From: a virus
Length of the DNA: 18,558 nucleotides
Strand: one strand, 5' to 3'
Virus genome (UHGV): UHGV-0255022
Below, piece after piece: positions 2,445-7,401 of this stretch. The position numbers and the translations under genes are program-made. Numbering within the stretch: the stretch's first letter is position 1; every line of letters starts with the position of its first letter. Under the pieces are notes generated by a model, which worked only from the letters and a program-made list of their open reading frames with translations, had not been told where the DNA came from and ran no database searches.

Positions 2445-2468
2445 AATAAAAAAGGAGCCTGTAGCTCC
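2445..2468 (-). terminator. Weak intrinsic terminator candidate inside the leftward operon
   Basis: On the minus strand, ggagc-tacag-gctcc (5-bp stem) is followed by ttttttatt. It lies about 23 bp downstream of the stop of ORF 2491..2772. Confidence 0.3.
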
Positions 2469-2490
2469 CTGATAATTTTGCTTTTCATGT

Positions 2491-2974: not shown

Positions 2975-3135
2975 ACCGCCCCCCGTTTATTATTTATCTC
3001 CTCAGCCAGCCGCTGGGCTTTCAGCGGATTTCGGATAACAGAAAGACCGTGAAATACCCAGCCTCGCTTTGTAACGGAGTAGACGAAAGTGATCGCGCCT
3101 ACCCGGATATTATCGTGAGGATGGGTCATCGCCAT
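2947..3135 (-). CDS. Small early protein, lambda orf60a-like by position
   Basis: 62-aa ORF immediately upstream of exo and overlapping its start. Confidence 0.45.
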
Positions 3136-3806
3136 TGCTCTCCAAATACAAAACCAATTTCAGCCAGTGCTTCGTCCATTTTTTCGATGAACTCCGGCAC
3201 CATCTCGTCAAAACTCGCCATGTACTTTTCATCCCGCTCAACCACGACATAATGCAGGCCTTCACGCTTCATTCGTGGGTCATAGTTGGCAAAGTACCAG
3301 GCATCTTTTCGTGTCACCCACATGCTGTACTGCACCTGGGCCATGTAAGCCGACTTTATGGCCTCGAAACCACCGAGCCGGAACTTCATGAAATCCCGGG
3401 AGGTAAACGGGCATTTCAGCTCAAGGCCATTGCCGTCACTGCATAAACCATCGGGAGAGCAGGCGGTGCGCATACTTTCGTCGCGATAGATGATCGGGGA
3501 TTCAGTAACATTCACGCCGGAAGTGAATTCAAACAGGGTTCTGGCGTCGTTCTCGTACTGTTTTCCCCACGCCAGCGCCTTAGCATTAACTTCCGGAGCC
3601 ACACCGGTGCAAACCTCAGCCAGCAGGGTGTGGAAGTAGGACATTTTCATGTCAGGCCACTTCTTTCCTGAGCGGGGCTTTGCTATCACGTTGTGAACTT
3701 CTGAAGCGGTGATGACGCCGAGCCGTAATTTGTGCCATGCATCATCCCCCTGTTCGACAGCTCTCACGTCGATCCCGGTACGCTGCAGGATAATGTCCGG
3801 TGTCAT
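3126..3806 (-). CDS. exo: Lambda-type 5'-3' exonuclease (Red alpha)
   Basis: 226-aa product that is near-identical to lambda Exo as I recall it ([47 protein letters not shown]...). It overlaps bet by 4 nt, as in lambda. Confidence 0.95.
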
Positions 3807-4588
3807 GCTGCCACCTTCTGCTCAGTGGCTTTCTGTTTCAGGAATCCAAGAGCTTTCACTGCTTCGGCCTGTGTCAGTTCTGACGATGCGCGAATGTCGC
3901 GGCGAAATATCTGGGAACAGAGCGGCAATAAGTCGTCATCCCATGTTTTGTCCAGGGCAATCAGCAGAGTGTTAATCTCCTGCATGGTTTCATCGTTAAC
4001 CGGAGTGATGTCGCGTTCCGGCTGACGTTCCGCAGTGTATGCAGTATTTTCGACAATGCGCTCGGCTTCATCCTTGTCATAGATACCAGCAAATCCGAAG
4101 GCCAGACGGGCACACTGAATCATGGCTTTATGCCGTAACATCCGTTTGGGATGCGACTGCCACGGCCCCGTGATTTCTCTGCCTTCGCGAGTTTTGAATG
4201 GTTCGCGGCGGCATTCATCCATCCATTCGGTAACGCAGATCGGATGATTGCGGTCTTTGCGGTAAATCCGGCACGTACATGATTCATTGTCCTGCTCAAA
4301 GTCCATGCCATCAAACTGCTGGTTTTCATTGATGATGCGGGACCAGCCATCAACGCCCACCACCGGAACGATGCCGTTCTGCTTATCAGGGAAGGCGTAA
4401 ATTTCTTTCGTCCACGGATTAAGGCCGTACTGGTTGGCGACGATCAGCAATGCGATGAACTGCGCATCGCTGGCATCACCTTTAAATGCCGTCTGACGAA
4501 GAGTGGTGATCAGTTCCTGTGGGTCGACAGAATCCATGCCGACACGTTCAGCCAGCTTCCCAGCCAGCGTTGCGAGTGCTGTACTCAT
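3803..4588 (-). CDS. bet: Red beta single-strand annealing protein
   Basis: 261-aa product matching lambda Bet as recalled ([59 protein letters not shown]...). Confidence 0.95.
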
Positions 4589-4593
4589 CCGTT

Positions 4594-4890
4594 TTATACC
4601 TCTGAATCAATATCAACATGGTGGTGAGCAATGGTTTCAACCATGTACCGGATGTGTTCTGCCATGCGCTCCTGAAACTCAACATCGTCATCAAACGCAC
4701 GGGTAATGGCTTTTTTGCTGGCCCCGCAGCGTTGCAAATGATCGATGCAGAGTGATTCAAACAGGTGCTGTGGAAGACCTTTTTCCATGTCGTCTGCCAG
4801 TTCTGCCTCTTTCTCTTCACGGGCGATCTGCTGGTAGTGACGCGCCCAGCTTTGAGCCTCAAGACGATCCTGAATGTAATAAGCGTTCAT
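4594..4890 (-). CDS. gam: Gam, RecBCD inhibitor (short 98-aa form)
   Basis: 98-aa product matching the lambda GamS region as recalled ([21 protein letters not shown]...[10 protein letters not shown]), with an SD (caggag) upstream. The frame is closed upstream, so the lambda long-form N-terminal extension is absent. Confidence 0.9.
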
Positions 4891-4965
4891 GGCTGAACTC
4901 CTGAAAATGGCTGTGAAAATATCGCCTGCGAAATGCCGGGCTGATTAGGTAAACAGGAAAGGGGA

Positions 4966-5256
4966 TTAGTGATTCAGGCCGTTGCCGCGTCCGTCGAGAA
5001 AAACTTCCACGAGCAAATCACGGGTATAAGTGCGCTCGATGCCGCGATGCAGATAAAGCCGTCCGCGTAAATTAGCTGATGCAGTCCAGGTACCATCTTT
5101 GTGTTTGACCAGCATTCCTGGCATGACCGCACCGCGATTAACGGTCTGCGTTCCGTAATGTTGATGAACCATAAAAACTCCTGCCCGTAAGCTGGGCTGC
5201 TGAACATATAGAGACTTCTGCGCGTATTCAGGCGGTGGATGGCCGCCGGTTGTCAT
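4966..5256 (-). CDS. Hypothetical protein, first ORF of the predicted pL transcript
   Basis: 96-aa ORF with a GAGG about 11 nt upstream. It has no arginine-rich N-like motif and no recognisable family. An alternative 77-aa frame (4974..5207) overlaps it. Confidence 0.35.
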
Positions 5257-5430
5257 AACTAAGCCGCCTCGTTGAAGCGACTAAGGTATGAAATGTTGAG
5301 TTAATTTCAGCTGGTCACACCGACGTTCACGCGTCCGTTTCACCCCTCGCACTCCCCGAAGCCTGCTGAAATTCAAACTGCGGATCTAAGCGGTCATCGC
5401 AACGGTGAATCAGGTAGTTGCCGTATCGTT

Positions 5431-5510
5431 GTGTTGTTGCGATGAACTTATTTAAAACTATAGTTGTTTTATCGTCAACAACAAAAGTTGTTTTATTGGT
5501 TGTTTTAGAT
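5431..5510 (-). promoter_or_regulatory. Predicted leftward early promoter pL with an OL operator cluster of GTTGTT/AACAAC half-sites
   Basis: Minus strand: -35 TTGACG (plus 5473-5478), 17-bp spacer, -10 TTAAAT (plus 5450-5455). It is embedded in repeated GTTGTT/AACAAC inverted half-sites (AACAAC-tttt-GTTGTT, GTTGTTGACG...AACAAC) that mirror the OR architecture. Confidence 0.5.
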
Positions 5511-5619
5511 ATAACTGGTTGTATTTAGGATGGATTTATTTTGTGACTTGAATCGCATAGCGATAACTGAAGCGAGGTTATGGTGGTTTTTTTAACGGTG
5601 TGTGTGATGAGGGGAGGGC

Positions 5620-5646
5620 AAAAGAAAACCCGGCACGGTGACCGGG
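5620..5646 (-). terminator. Intrinsic terminator downstream of the repressor gene
   Basis: Minus strand: CCCGG-tcaccgtg-CCGGG hairpin followed by ttttctttt. It lies between the cI stop (5768) and pL. Confidence 0.45.
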
Positions 5647-5767
5647 ATTCTTACGCCGTTAGGTAAAGATATTATTGCGGTGGCTTAATATTACTACCTA
5701 GAGCAAAGATAGGAATTAGTTCTTTACTGAATGAGCACAATGCCCAGTTGATAATTTTTAATTGGTA

Positions 5768-6457
5768 CTACCCATGCTTCCTATATGTCTGCGGCATGCT
5801 CCCAATAACCTTACCGAAGATGAACACCCGGTTCATCTCGTCTTTCTCGATCGGGTCCCACGGTGAGTAGCTTTTGTTATCAGAGATGACCAGCAGCTTA
5901 TCCTTCATCATTTGCAGGCGCTTTACATGGGCTGTGTCGTCGTACAGAAACGCATAGATACCATCACCGTCGAAAGATTTAACTGTGATATCAACGAACA
6001 GCAGATCACCTGGTTCGATCGTTCCTGACATGCTGTCACCACGCACGTTAATGATGCGGATATTTTCCGCCTTCCTACCATCGAACATGTGACGAGCATC
6101 GTCAAACGAGTACTCAACCGAGCGTAGAACTTCTACAAACTCACGGTTGATGACTCCCGGCCCAGCACTGACTTCTATATCAAGAACGTCAATCTTGAAG
6201 TATTTGGAATGGCTGACAGTTGATTGTATTGGTTGCACTGTACTGTCTGACATATTTCCAACGCCAGAAGATAACCATTCTGCGCGCACACCCAAAGCGT
6301 TCGCGATCTCCACGATTTTAGTTGTTTGATTAGCTTTCCCTGTTTCGATTTTCTGAATAGCAGCCTGGCTAACCCCGACCAAATCCCCAAGCGCCTTTTG
6401 TGTAAGGCCTCGCGCTAATCTGGCTTCTTTAAGTCTTTCTGAGAGTGTTGTTTTCAT
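5768..6457 (-). CDS. CI-type prophage repressor (N-terminal XRE HTH, C-terminal S24 LexA-like autopeptidase)
   Basis: HTH motif LTQKALGDLVGVSQAAIQKIETGK; an Ala-Gly cleavage site (SAGPG); catalytic Ser in GDSMSGT and Lys in HVKRL. The start is placed at MKTTLSERL (ATG 6457) rather than the ORF-track start at 6523, which lies inside the operator. It is divergent from the cro-like gene and probably leaderless. Confidence 0.85.
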   Translation of the reverse strand: MKTTLSERLKEARLARGLTQKALGDLVGVSQAAIQKIETGKANQTTKIVEIANALGVRAEWLSSGVGNMSDSTVQPIQSTVSHSKYFKIDVLDIEVSAGPGVINREFVEVLRSVEYSFDDARHMFDGRKAENIRIINVRGDSMSGTIEPGDLLFVDITVKSFDGDGIYAFLYDDTAHVKRLQMMKDKLLVISDNKSYSPWDPIEKDEMNRVFIFGKVIGSMPQTYRKHG

Positions 6458-6463
6458 AGTCCA

Positions 6464-6492
6464 AATGTACAACCAAGGTTTTATTCCATCAA
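6464..6492 (-). promoter_or_regulatory. Predicted PRM-like promoter for a leaderless repressor mRNA
   Basis: Minus strand: -35 TTGATG (plus 6487-6492), 17-bp spacer, -10 TACATT (plus 6464-6469), with the cI ATG about 7 nt downstream and no SD. Confidence 0.4.
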
Positions 6493-6498
6493 ACGAAA

Positions 6499-6534
6499 AT
6501 GGTTGTTGACTAAAAACAACCATAGTTTTAATCT
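6499..6534 (+). promoter_or_regulatory. PR promoter overlapping a 25-bp perfect palindromic operator
   Basis: Palindrome ATGGTTGTTgactaaaAACAACCAT (6499-6523). -35 TTGACT (6506-6511), 17-bp spacer, -10 TAATCT (6529-6534), then SD GGAGG (6552-6556) and the cro-like ATG at 6562. Confidence 0.6.
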
Positions 6535-6561: not shown

Positions 6562-6792
6562 ATGAACCCAGCTATCAAAACAGCGATCAATATCGTTGGT
6601 TCACAAAAGAAACTGGGCGCTGCTTGCGAAGTTTCACAGCAGGCCGTCTATAAGTGGCTTCACAACAAAGCAAAGGTATCCCCTGAACATGTCGGCAGCA
6701 TTGTTACGGCTACTGGTGGAGTAGTGAAGGCATACCAGATTCGCCCGGATCTTCCGAAGTTGTTTCCACACACCGAAAAGAACGCAGCTTAA
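6562..6792 (+). CDS. Cro-like HTH regulator (YdaS-like)
   Basis: 76-aa ORF, first gene of the rightward operon, with an HTH (SQKKLGAACEVSQQAVYKWL) and a strong SD. Confidence 0.8.
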   Translation: MNPAIKTAINIVGSQKKLGAACEVSQQAVYKWLHNKAKVSPEHVGSIVTATGGVVKAYQIRPDLPKLFPHTEKNAA

Positions 6793-6861
6793 ATTTCCAT
6801 TTCACGCTCTTTAACAATAAGCAATCAACTTAACAGTCAATTCAAACTAAAGGAGTCAATT

Positions 6862-7401
6862 ATGCAACCACTTACATACCAACAGACTAGCGGATTTAGC
6901 CCGACTGCGGTGATAAATCGTTCTCAAACAAAACAGGTGCCAGGCCACGAAAAAATCCGTGATGCCGTCCGCGCCTGGTCGGCTGTAGATAATCAGGATG
7001 TCGTTGCCACACTCATTGTGAATGAGTATCTGGAGCAGGGCGGCGGCACCATCGATTTCCCTGATGATGTCAGCCGTGCACGCCAGAAGCTGTTCCGCTT
7101 CCTCGATAACAAATTCGATTCTGAAAAATACCGAAATAACGTGCGTGAACTGACCCCGGCAATTCTGGCGGTACTACCGCTGGAATATCGCGGTTACCTG
7201 GTTGAGCAGGATAGCTTCATGGCTAGGTTGGCTGAAATGGAAAAGGAACTCAGTGAGGCAAAACAGGCTGTCATTCTCAACGCACCACGCCACCAGAAAC
7301 TGAAGGAAATTAGTGAAGGTATTGTGTCGATGTTTCGTGTGGACCCAGATCTGGCTGGTCCATTGATGGCGATGGTTACTACCATGCTGGGGGCGATATG
7401 A
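6862..7401 (+). CDS. YdaT-like prophage protein in the CII position
   Basis: 179-aa ORF with SD aaaggag. The motifs EYLEQGGG and LTPAILAVLP resemble Rac-prophage YdaT as recalled. It lies between cro and O, where lambda has cII. Confidence 0.5.
   Translation: MQPLTYQQTSGFSPTAVINRSQTKQVPGHEKIRDAVRAWSAVDNQDVVATLIVNEYLEQGGGTIDFPDDVSRARQKLFRFLDNKFDSEKYRNNVRELTPAILAVLPLEYRGYLVEQDSFMARLAEMEKELSEAKQAVILNAPRHQKLKEISEGIVSMFRVDPDLAGPLMAMVTTMLGAI

What the first reader, a model, noticed from the sequence alone, without database searches (positions are those of the whole stretch)
4891..5767. No recognisable N antiterminator downstream of pL
The interval between gam and cI is under 0.9 kb and has no rexAB, sieB, cIII or kil. 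The first ORF of the predicted pL transcript (4966..5256, 96 aa) has no arginine-rich motif. The leader does contain an inverted repeat (TTGAATTTCAGC ... GCTGAAATTAAC, about 45 nt apart) that could form an RNA structure. Either N was deleted, leaving a partly defective prophage, or early antitermination is N-independent. Downstream terminator-like elements exist (for example 2445-2468), so some mechanism for reading through them would be needed.
Basis: inference. Interest (0 to 1): 0.5.

Follow-up and report, generated by a model that had tools for sequence, protein, structure and literature searches.

The report
Lambda-like prophage early region without N
This lambda-like prophage really lacks the classic N anti-terminator gene after its early leftward promoter, and the same N-less layout sits in about 40% of complete E. 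coli genomes and in plaque-forming phages, so it is a working variant whose read-through mechanism, if it has one, is unknown.

Summary
The core observation holds. No N-family protein, no boxB hairpin and no HK022-type put RNA lie between cI and gam, and positive controls show the searches can detect N. Several details are wrong.

- kil is present (4966-5172, 68 aa).
- The "96-aa first ORF" is an artefact. It joins the AUG of a conserved structured RNA element in frame to kil.
- An Arg-rich micro-ORF (5281-5376) exists, but TAG and frameshift variants interrupt it and it is only marginally unusual by chance.

The interval reads: pL/OL, then a ~150-nt leader specific to this lineage (5294-5443), then a ~130-nt RNA element (5173-5300) with a covarying hairpin, then kil-gam-bet-exo. 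In 13 other lambdoid phages that element follows a tL1-like terminator. Here both N and that terminator are missing.

The leader is joined at the transcript start to at least three different operator types. It occurs in 2210 of 5426 complete E. coli genomes and in active phages (Perceval, ΦR68.2). "Defective prophage" is therefore not supported, and "N-independent" is.

Most likely the recombination genes need no anti-termination. Whether the leader RNA actively promotes read-through of the lambda-type terminator at 2452-2470 is untested. Structure statistics and covariation do not support this, but they do not exclude it.

The parts
4594..4890 (-). gam (98 aa), the second gene of the pL operon here
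   Evidence: Pfam Gam, E=3.7e-63
4966..5172 (-). kil (68 aa, MVHQHYGTQ...), the first real gene of the pL operon, with its own SD (GGAG) and AUG at 5172-5170
   Evidence: PHROG 294 Kil, E=1.3e-37. Annotated as a 207-nt Kil in 4A7 and HK225. Alignment A4.
4966..5256 (-). The '96-aa ORF' of the finding. It is an artefactual fusion of the element's AUG (5256) with kil.
   Evidence: In HK225 and phi80 the same AUG opens a separate 21-codon ORF. In Siccibacter a 5-nt deletion changes the peptide but keeps the hairpin. Indels at 5182 and ~5178 in Turner and PhiR30_1 break the frame.
5173..5300 (-). Widely conserved structured RNA element upstream of kil. It holds hairpin 5262-5282, the invariant GUUAUGAC, and hairpin GGCGG-CCAUCCA-CCGCC at 5231-5247.
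   Evidence: nhmmer hits in 14 or more lambdoid phages and prophages of other genera. Alignment A5. 6 of 9 pairs of hairpin 1 have compensatory changes, 0/500 shuffles reach the observed covariation. Fold z = -4.2. In 13 of 13 other phages a tL1-like terminator precedes it; that terminator is absent here.
5281..5376 (-). Arg-rich micro-ORF (TTG 5376; alternative GTG 5352/5343; ...RGVKRTRERRCDQLKL...; TAG at 5281-5283). Probably not a gene.
   Evidence: 8 R/K in 16 aa occurs in 3.3% of shuffles. TAG in 10 of 41 haplotypes and CAG in 31; 5-nt and 1-nt insertions occur in some. No homolog outside the lineage. No Pfam or PHROG hit.
5294..5443 (-). Lineage-specific untranslated pL leader that occupies the place of N plus tL1. 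It contains inverted repeats 5303-5314/5362-5373 and 5394-5403/5436-5445. The RNA is C-rich at its 5' end and G-rich in the middle.
   Evidence: No homolog in 25 kil loci of other genera or in non-E. coli phages. No Rfam hit. No put-model hit.
5449..5510 (-). pL (TTGACG 5473-5478, 17-18 nt, TTAAAT ~5450-5455) embedded in OL operators (AACAAC/GTTGTT motifs). The start site is inferred at ~5441-5444.
   Evidence: Read from the sequence. It is a near-twin of pR (TTGACT 6506-6511, 17 nt, TAATCT 6529-6534). Homology between immunity types begins exactly here. The promoter is inferred, not mapped.
5629..5646 (-). Intrinsic terminator ending the cI transcript
   Evidence: CCCGGTCACCGTGCCGGG followed by TTTTCTTTT
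5768..6523 (-). cI repressor (HTH + S24 peptidase). The true start is probably the ATG near 6459 (230 aa).
   Evidence: Pfam Peptidase_S24 1.5e-18 and HTH_3 6.5e-13. Relatives annotate 690-nt cI genes.
6806..6817 (+). Exact rrn-type boxA (GCTCTTTAACAA) in the pR transcript between cro (6562-6792) and cII (6862-7401), with no adjacent boxB
2452..2470 (-). The only strong intrinsic terminator on the pL path, between the orf61-like gene and the DksA-like/xis/int genes
   Evidence: The 121-nt region is 100% identical in ev207 (N+) and 95-98% identical in a lambda hybrid (Lambda h434 imm21) and in Stx phages.

Best explanation
The interval is the early-left control region of a lambdoid phage lineage that works without N.

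Shown:
- pL, overlapped by OL operators, is followed by a ~270-nt stretch with no convincing gene. It consists of a ~150-nt leader specific to this E. coli lineage and a ~130-nt structured RNA element shared with many lambdoid phages.
- Then come kil, gam, bet and exo.
- Relatives carry N (or other early genes) plus a tL1-like terminator in front of that element. This lineage has neither.
- No strong intrinsic terminator lies between pL and exo.

Inferred:
- Immediate-early leftward transcription therefore reaches the toxic and recombination genes with unmodified RNA polymerase.
- Tight or overlapping gene spacing (reading frames 76 nt apart to 4 nt overlapping) protects the transcript from Rho once kil is reached.
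- Genes beyond the lambda-type terminator at 2452-2470 (DksA-like, xis) are reached by leak-through or by other promoters.
- On the right, an exact boxA after cro may recruit host NusB/NusE to damp Rho-dependent termination.
For: - No N: Pfam and PHROG searches of all ORFs in the interval and of the left-operon ORFs are negative. Positive control: ev207 N.
- No boxB-type hairpin in either leader.
- No boxA in the pL leader.
- No put: a covariance model of HK022 putL/putR and HK639 putL gives no hit in the leader at E<=10.
- No Rfam family.
- Alignment A5 shows a terminator hairpin plus U-run immediately upstream of the conserved element in 13 of 13 other phages. This lineage has it replaced, with homology resuming at the TTTCATACC that overlaps the terminator's U-tract.
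- The terminator scan finds only a weak candidate inside kil (5007-5023) and the strong 2452-2470 site on the pL path.
- The lineage is functional and common: 16 phages, 2210 of 5426 E. coli genomes, 69 full-length copies in IMG/VR loci with leader, element and kil contiguous, an active Perceval and a plaque-tested ΦR68.2.
- The leader is joined at about +1 to three unrelated operator/promoter types.
Against: - The terminator at 2452-2470 is identical to that of ev207 (N+) and is shared with Stx phages and a lambda hybrid (N confirmed only for ev207). In such phages N-modified polymerase presumably reads through it. xis lies beyond it, so efficient excision after induction may still need read-through.
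- On the right, Q (15909-16598) is separated from pR by two large inserted ORFs, a strong bidirectional terminator (12992-13012) and an opposite-strand gene. Some solution other than passive read-through seems needed there.
- A 270-nt untranslated, partly C-rich leader should be a target for Rho. The model does not explain this.
- The leader's retention with a module boundary exactly at the transcript start hints at a function that this model does not assign.
Confidence: 0.5

Rival explanations
1. The lineage-specific leader RNA (5294-5443, perhaps together with the conserved element) is a cis-acting processive anti-terminator. It would be a functional analogue of HK022/HK639 put that is not homologous to it, modifying the polymerase that has just made it.
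For: - The position matches putL: it starts at +1 of pL and precedes the first gene.
- It is the only sequence in the early operons that is specific to the N-less lineage. All early proteins checked belong to PHROG families, and the left-arm DNA tested is shared with N+ phages.
- It keeps the same boundary with three different immunity regions.
- The phages retain lambda-type terminators.
- The leader holds two perfect 9-10-bp stems, whereas a stem of 9 bp or more appears in 2.6% of shuffles.
- The A5367G variant keeps the pair as G-U.
Against: - The put covariance model is negative.
- Folding energy is not better than shuffles: z=+0.5 for 147 nt and z=-1.4 for the repeat region.
- 41 haplotypes show no compensatory change, and the MFE 'rod' is broken by A5410T in 5 haplotypes.
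- The O157 variant lacks the first ~35 nt.
- There is no second copy in the pR operon or anywhere else in the window.
- The sequence is known only from E. coli at 94% identity or more, so conservation is uninformative.
Confidence: 0.22
2. An unrecognised protein anti-terminator, encoded elsewhere in the phage or supplied by host Nus factors acting on the boxA at 6806-6817, gives processive read-through. The pL leader would be irrelevant to it.
For: - An exact 12-nt rrn-type boxA lies in the pR transcript.
- It occurs only in phages with this immunity module, all of which are N-less.
- N-like factors can be unrecognisable by sequence: phi80 'N' matches no N family.
Against: - The 4A7-type immunity module, which carries the same leader, lacks the boxA.
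- The pL leader has no boxA.
- rrn-type complexes act mainly on Rho-dependent termination, not on strong intrinsic terminators (established knowledge).
- No lineage-specific ORF exists in the early operons of the window.
Confidence: 0.15
3. The Arg-rich micro-ORF (GTG 5343 or TTG 5376, MKRTRERRCDQLKL...) is a minimal N-like peptide that binds a leader hairpin.
For: - The KRTRERR motif resembles N arginine-rich motifs (comparison from memory).
- It is the first ORF after pL.
- A GGGGAG lies 8 nt upstream of GTG 5343.
- 4 of 41 haplotypes have ATG there, and the only common polymorphism in the core is synonymous.
Against: - The Arg/Lys density is reached by 3.3% of shuffles.
- TAG ends the ORF after 20-31 codons in about a quarter of haplotypes, and CAG variants run on into kil.
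- 5-nt and 1-nt insertions shift the frame in some haplotypes.
- It uses rare Arg codons.
- There is no boxB-like hairpin in either leader.
- There is no homolog outside the lineage and no family hit.
- In lambda, the N arginine-rich motif alone does not anti-terminate (established knowledge).
Confidence: 0.04
4. N was lost and the element is a defective prophage that depends on N from a co-resident lambdoid phage.
For: - E. coli strains often carry several lambdoid prophages.
- Perceval is the least-produced LF82 virion and needed enrichment to give plaques.
Against: - Carriers plaque on K-12, E. coli C or DH10B hosts (record host fields).
- There are no nut sites for a helper N to act on.
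- The arrangement is uniform in thousands of genomes.
Confidence: 0.04

Closest known systems
Phage lambda pL-nutL-N-tL1 early-left region (N/Nus anti-termination)
   Same: - Same position in a lambdoid genome: cI terminator, OL/pL, a leader, then kil-gam-bet-exo.
- The distal left-arm terminator region is shared (95-100% identical) with N+ ev207, a lambda hybrid and Stx phages.
- A boxA is present on the pR side.
   Different: - No N-family gene, no boxB, and no boxA on the pL side.
- No tL1, ral, sieB or cIII.
HK022 putL/putR and HK639 putL-like RNA (protein-independent, cis-acting anti-termination)
   Same: - An N-less lambdoid with a non-coding leader that starts at pL.
- The first ~20 nt of the transcript resemble those of the HK639, phi80 and HK225 leaders: 15 of 20 identical, CATCG.AAC.A.ACA.CGA.
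   Different: - No match to a put covariance model.
- None of the invariant put blocks is present (CGAACGGC, GTCGG, GGCG.GG..CAGGA.GA, CAAT).
- No pR-side copy.
- The function is untested.
phi80 / HK225 / HK639-type region downstream of tL1
   Same: The 5173-5300 element, with its covarying hairpin, GUUAUGAC and GGCGGCCAUCCACCGCC hairpin, is shared, as is the kil that follows.
   Different: Those phages have genes plus an intrinsic terminator between pL and the element. Here the 150-nt leader replaces them.
Lambda N- nin5-type N-independence (loss of terminators instead of anti-termination)
   Same: The logic of the best explanation is the same: the gene-proximal terminator (tL1) is absent, so unmodified polymerase reaches the early genes. 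This comparison rests on established lambda genetics recalled from memory.
   Different: This is a natural, widespread arrangement rather than a laboratory deletion. The right operon here still contains strong terminators before Q.

Membership tests
Lambda-type N / nut anti-termination | An N-family protein encoded as the first gene of the pL operon | tested here: not met
   All ORFs of 20 aa or more in 4891-5767 were tested against Pfam and/or PHROGs without an N hit. Left-operon ORFs are negative. Control: ev207 N hits Pfam N_peptide at 1.5e-32 and PHROG 271 at 2e-24.
Lambda-type N / nut anti-termination | An N-terminal arginine-rich RNA-binding motif in that protein | tested here: inconclusive
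   An Arg-rich micro-ORF exists (5281-5376). However, it is reached by 3.3% of shuffles, is cut by TAG in 10 of 41 haplotypes, is frameshifted in others, and has no homologs.
Lambda-type N / nut anti-termination | boxB hairpins (short stem, GNRNA-type loop) in both the pL and pR leaders | tested here: not met
   A hairpin scan of 5173-5443 (-) and 6780-6870 (+) found no GNRA or GNRNA-looped stem of 4 bp or more. The two leaders share no hairpin.
Lambda-type N / nut anti-termination | boxA in both leaders | tested here: not met
   An exact GCTCTTTAACAA lies at 6806-6817 (pR side) only. Nothing with 3 or fewer mismatches lies in the pL leader.
Lambda-type N / nut anti-termination | Dependence of phage growth on host NusA, NusB, NusE and NusG | not testable with these tools
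   Needs plating on nus mutants.
put RNA (HK022 / HK639) | Two-stem-loop RNA with the conserved put sequence blocks | tested here: not met
   Model R1 (3 sequences, 17 pairs) gave no hit in 5173-5443 at E<=10 with filters off. The model is small, so very divergent relatives could be missed.
put RNA (HK022 / HK639) | Located just downstream of the early promoter(s) | tested here: inconclusive
   The leader starts at +1 of pL, but no related sequence follows pR. The HK639 record likewise annotates only a putL-like RNA.
put RNA (HK022 / HK639) | Cis-acting terminator read-through that needs the beta-prime zinc-binding domain | not testable with these tools
   Needs reporter fusions and rpoC mutants.
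rrn-type boxA / Nus-factor complex | boxA consensus GCUCUUUAACAA in the nascent RNA | tested here: met
   An exact match at 6806-6817 on the transcribed strand of the pR operon, and the only exact copy in 18.6 kb. Its function is untested.
Kil (FtsZ-inhibitor peptide family, PHROG 294) | Profile match over the full length, positioned just upstream of gam | tested here: met
   E=1.3e-37, residues 1-68. 85% and 78% identical to the HK225 and KO-TP1 Kil.
Any Rfam RNA family | Covariance-model match at or near the gathering score | tested here: not met
   No hit in the whole window at the gathering threshold. Only chance-level hits (E>1) in 4800-5800.

The most novel reading that the evidence does not exclude
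The ~150-nt leader that starts at +1 of pL, possibly acting with the conserved structured element behind it, is a new class of cis-acting anti-terminator RNA unrelated in sequence to put. It would let an N-less lambdoid lineage, present in about 40% of E. coli genomes, read through lambda-type terminators.
Probability: 0.2. Interest if true: 0.75.

Novelty: new variant of a known kind. Interest (0 to 1): 0.4.

Why it matters
N-dependent anti-termination is the textbook switch of lambdoid phages. The only characterised N-less alternative is the put RNA of HK022 and HK639.

This work shows that a very common E. coli prophage lineage has neither N/nut nor a recognisable put. Members include the LF82 prophage Perceval, the 4A7-type gut phages and an O157:H7 prophage. 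The lineage still shares terminator-containing modules with N+ phages.

If the leader turns out to be an anti-terminator, it would be a second, independent RNA solution to the same problem. It would also be a handle on induction of many clinical E. coli prophages. If it is not, the lineage is a natural example of N-independence through loss of the promoter-proximal terminator, which is useful for annotation but not surprising.

Either way, the 96-aa to 139-aa 'Kil' ORFs annotated in several records are over-extended.

Tried and rejected
- Rfam scans at the gathering threshold (whole window) and by E-value (4800-5800) gave nothing meaningful.
- A put covariance model built from HK022 putL/putR and HK639 putL gave no hit in the leader.
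- A local alignment of the leader against the rest of the window, looking for a pR-side twin, stayed at the shuffle level.
- Alignments of the leader to the phi80, HK225, HK639 and HK022 leaders gave phi80 a score of 36 against a null of 27.9±4.5, with 10 of 200 shuffles as high. Homology is not established.
- nhmmer of the leader against 25 kil loci from other genera gave no hit, so no deep alignment for covariation could be built.
- RNAalifold on 8 haplotypes and variation in 41 haplotypes showed no compensatory pairs. The MFE rod is contradicted by A5410T. The IMG/VR haplotypes were selected with an exact 14-mer (5324-5337), so invariance there is by construction.
- tblastn of the Arg-rich ORF against 50,697 phage records found only the same lineage.
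- A search for an RfaH ops element found none in the leader on the transcribed strand.
- Literature searches for descriptions of this N-less lineage found nothing specific. They found only a general remark that an N-less lambdoid 'may have a put mechanism' (PMC12315714).
- The King et al. 2011 paper on HK639 could not be located in the library.
Full report
**Map of the region.**
The window is the early region of a lambdoid (pro)phage.
- On the - strand lie int, xis, small lambda-type ORFs, exo (3126-3806), bet (3803-4588), gam (4594-4890; Pfam Gam 3.7e-63) and a cI-type repressor (5768-6523; HTH + S24 peptidase).
- On the + strand lie a YdaS-type cro (6562-6792), a YdaT-type cII (6862-7401), O, P, inserted genes, nin genes and a Q-like anti-terminator (15909-16598; PHROG 304).
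- cI is followed by its own terminator (5629-5646).
- Next come AACAAC/GTTGTT operator motifs around a promoter, TTGACG-17-TTAAAT (5450-5478). It is almost a copy of pR, TTGACT-17-TAATCT (6506-6534).
- The pL assignment and a start site near 5441-5444 are inferences. They are supported by the fact that relatives with other immunity regions become homologous to the window exactly from that point on.

- No ORF of 20 aa or more in 4891-5767 hits an N family in Pfam or PHROGs. None of the left-operon ORFs does either.
- The test is meaningful. The 90-aa ORF at the N position of phage ev207 is recognised by both libraries (Pfam N_peptide 1.5e-32; PHROG 271 2e-24).
- The pL leader has no boxA with 3 or fewer mismatches. 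Neither early leader has a hairpin with a GNRA or GNRNA loop.
- The inverted repeat exists: 5303-5314 / 5362-5373, 12 nt, 92% complementary, 47 nt apart. A second one lies at 5394-5403 / 5436-5445.
- The downstream terminator is real (2452-2470).

**What it got wrong or missed.**
- kil is present. 4966-5172 encodes a 68-aa protein with its own SD that matches PHROG 294 (Kil) at 1.3e-37. The same gene is annotated as Kil in 4A7 and HK225.
- The 96-aa ORF is an accident. Its AUG (5256) belongs to a conserved RNA element and is in frame with kil in this haplotype only by chance.
  - In HK225 and phi80 the same AUG opens a separate 21-codon ORF.
  - In Siccibacter and one other prophage a 5-nt deletion changes the peptide but keeps the hairpin.
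  - In Turner and PhiR30_1, single-base indels near the kil SD break the frame.
- Upstream in the same frame there is an Arg-rich stretch (RLRGVRGVKRTRERRCDQLKL, 5281-5376) that ends in TAG 5281-5283.
- An exact rrn-type boxA, GCTCTTTAACAA, lies at 6806-6817 between cro and cII. It is the only exact copy in the window.

**The Arg-rich micro-ORF is probably not a gene.**
- Its Arg/Lys density (8 of 16) is reached by 3.3% of dinucleotide shuffles of the leader.
- TAG is present in 10 of 41 haplotypes and CAG in 31. With CAG the frame runs on into kil, which explains the 128-139-aa 'Kil' annotations in PhiR47_2 and Perceval.
- Some haplotypes carry a 5-nt or a 1-nt insertion.
- It has no relative outside this lineage and no family match.
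- I cannot exclude a 20-aa peptide starting at GTG 5343. A GGGGAG lies 8 nt upstream, 4 haplotypes have ATG there, and the one common core polymorphism is synonymous. Without a boxB partner, and given what is known of lambda N domains, I give it about 4%.

**The conserved element (5173-5300).**
- nhmmer finds it in HK225, phi80, HK639, Klebsiella and Enterobacter phages, and prophages of Citrobacter, Siccibacter, Huaxiibacter and others.
- In alignment A5, hairpin 5262-5282 keeps pairing through compensatory changes in 6 of 9 pairs. Pairing is 90% against 35-54% when the partner columns are slid, and 0 of 500 shuffles reach the observed covariation.
- The window copy folds far better than shuffles (z = -4.2).
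- In all 13 other sequences an intrinsic terminator lies immediately upstream (GACCCGC..GCGGG or GCCGCC..GCGGC followed by a T-run). In phi80 that terminator follows the annotated 'N' gene. In HK225 it follows three small genes.
- In the window lineage the terminator hairpin is gone. Homology resumes at the TTTCATACC that overlaps the terminator's U-tract.
- So relative to its cousins, this lineage lacks both the pL-proximal genes and the terminator behind them.

**The lineage-specific leader (5294-5443).**
- It is found, unannotated, in 2210 of 5426 complete E. coli genomes, mostly at 95% identity or more. It is also in 16 sequenced phages and in 75 of the 120 IMG/VR loci fetched, 69 of them with leader, element and kil contiguous.
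- It is joined to three unrelated promoter/operator types. Two join at about +1 and one, the O157:H7 type, about 35 nt further in.
- It has no homolog in 25 kil loci from other genera, in non-E. coli phages or elsewhere in the window.
- It matches no Rfam family and not a put covariance model.
- Similarity to the phi80 and HK225 leaders is marginal (p about 0.05), apart from the first ~20 nt. These are 15 of 20 identical to the start of the phi80, HK225 and HK639 leaders.
- Structure evidence is weak. Folding z-scores are +0.5 (147 nt) and -1.4 (repeat region).
  - Two perfect 9-10-bp stems are somewhat more than chance gives, since a stem of 9 bp or more appears in 2.6% of shuffles.
  - 41 haplotypes show only one-sided changes. 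Some are compatible with pairing (A5367G gives G-U) and some are disruptive for the MFE fold (A5410T).
  - With sequences this similar, covariation cannot decide.

**Is the prophage defective?** No evidence says so.
- Perceval carries the same leader at 96.5% identity. It is an active LF82 prophage that was isolated as plaques, although it is the least-produced LF82 virion (PMC9928086).
- ΦR68.2 is used in efficiency-of-plating assays (bioRxiv 10.1101/2025.11.03.685801).
- Several PhiR relatives are recorded with E. coli K-12 or E. coli C as host, and Turner with E. coli. 4A7 is a complete deposited phage genome with no host recorded.

**How it most likely works.**
Shown:
- There is no N/nut and no recognisable put.
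- There is no strong terminator between pL and exo.
- One strong terminator lies at 2452-2470, before the DksA-like gene and xis. The 121-nt region around it is 100% identical to that of ev207 (N+) and 95-98% identical to a lambda hybrid and to Stx phages.

Inferred:
- Unmodified polymerase transcribes kil-gam-bet-exo.
- Distal genes depend on leak-through, on other promoters, or on an unknown read-through function.

I put about 0.5 on 'no dedicated processive anti-termination on pL'. I put about 0.2 on 'the leader RNA is a new cis-acting anti-terminator'. The main argument for the latter is that the leader is the only sequence in the early operons specific to the N-less lineage, and that it keeps a precise boundary at the transcript start. 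I put about 0.15 on an unrecognised protein or host-Nus solution, for which the orphan boxA on the pR side is the only lead. That boxA travels with this immunity module and is absent from the 4A7-type module.

An unsolved point for every model is how Q is reached. Two large inserted ORFs, a strong bidirectional terminator (12992-13012) and an opposite-strand gene (13017-14060) lie between P and the nin/Q genes.

**Comparison with known systems and novelty.**
- It works unlike lambda N/nut, since the defining features were tested and not met.
- It is not a member of the put family by sequence and structure model.
- It resembles HK022 and HK639 only in being N-less with a non-coding leader at pL. 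It resembles lambda N- nin5 in the logic of losing a terminator.
- N-less lambdoids are known, and the literature tends to assume a put-like mechanism for them (PMC12315714).
- What may be new is that this extremely common E. coli lineage has neither system.
- I rate it a new variant of a known kind, of moderate interest (0.4). The higher-value reading, a new anti-terminator RNA, is unproven.

Noticed in passing
window 5173-5300 (-); also L008 2501-2595, L012 322-413, L003 33056-33170, L010 2501-2604 and others: A conserved structured RNA element sits between a tL1-like terminator and the next gene in many lambdoid phages of several enterobacterial genera. It has a covarying 9-bp hairpin whose 3' arm holds a GAG(G) about 10 nt before an invariant AUG (GUUAUGAC), followed by a GGCGG-CCAUCCA-CCGCC hairpin. 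The nucleotide sequence is conserved rather than the peptide. There is one copy per genome. Its function is unknown; it might control translation or processing of the gene that follows, here the toxic kil.
   Followed up: partly
window 6806-6817 (+): An exact rrn-type boxA (GCTCTTTAACAA) lies in the pR transcript between cro and cII, with no boxB next to it. Among sequenced phages it is found only in those that carry this immunity module, and all of these are N-less.
   Followed up: partly
window 5560-5767; L001 3763-5191; L006 3258-4674; L038 1549-3150; L039 3641-4854: The gap between the cI terminator and pL (the rexAB position of lambda) is empty here. In relatives it carries different cargo: GevA/GevT toxin-antitoxin, an ASCH-domain gene plus an unknown gene, a SIR2-family gene in O157:H7, or an IS3 element. 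It behaves as a hotspot for defence-type inserted genes.
   Followed up: no
L012 432-728 (phi80 'N'); L012 ~1060-1140 and L008 1245-1320 (leaders): The protein annotated as N in phi80 matches no N family in Pfam or PHROGs. The phi80 and HK225 pL leaders share their first ~60 nt with the put-type phage HK639 and contain a boxA-like TGCTTTTTAACAA. The early anti-termination system of phi80-type phages may therefore also differ from the lambda type.
   Followed up: partly
window 9116-14507: Between P and the nin/Q genes lie two large ORFs (9365-10906 and 11184-12980; PHROG 7803/16344, function unknown), a strong bidirectional terminator (12992-13012) and an opposite-strand gene (13017-14060; its counterpart in phage 4A7 is annotated esterase). 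It is unclear how transcription from pR reaches Q. A promoter-like site at 14326-14354 and a terminator-like hairpin at 14447-14470 precede the first nin gene.
   Followed up: partly
window 5283 (T/C) and 5343 (G/A): Two common polymorphisms change how gene callers read the leader. T5283C turns TAG into CAG, which produces the 128-139-aa 'Kil' annotations in public records. G5343A creates an ATG in front of the Arg-rich stretch.
   Followed up: yes
window 6459-6523: The 251-aa cI ORF listed mechanically probably starts at the ATG near 6459, giving 230 aa as in relatives. The extra 21 codons overlap the OR operators and pR.
   Followed up: no
window ~5436-5445; L038 ~3472-3480; L012 ~1130-1137; L003 ~34376-34383: The predicted pL transcripts of this phage, its O157 variant, phi80, HK225 and HK639 all begin with a CATCG motif, although the operators upstream are unrelated.
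   Followed up: no
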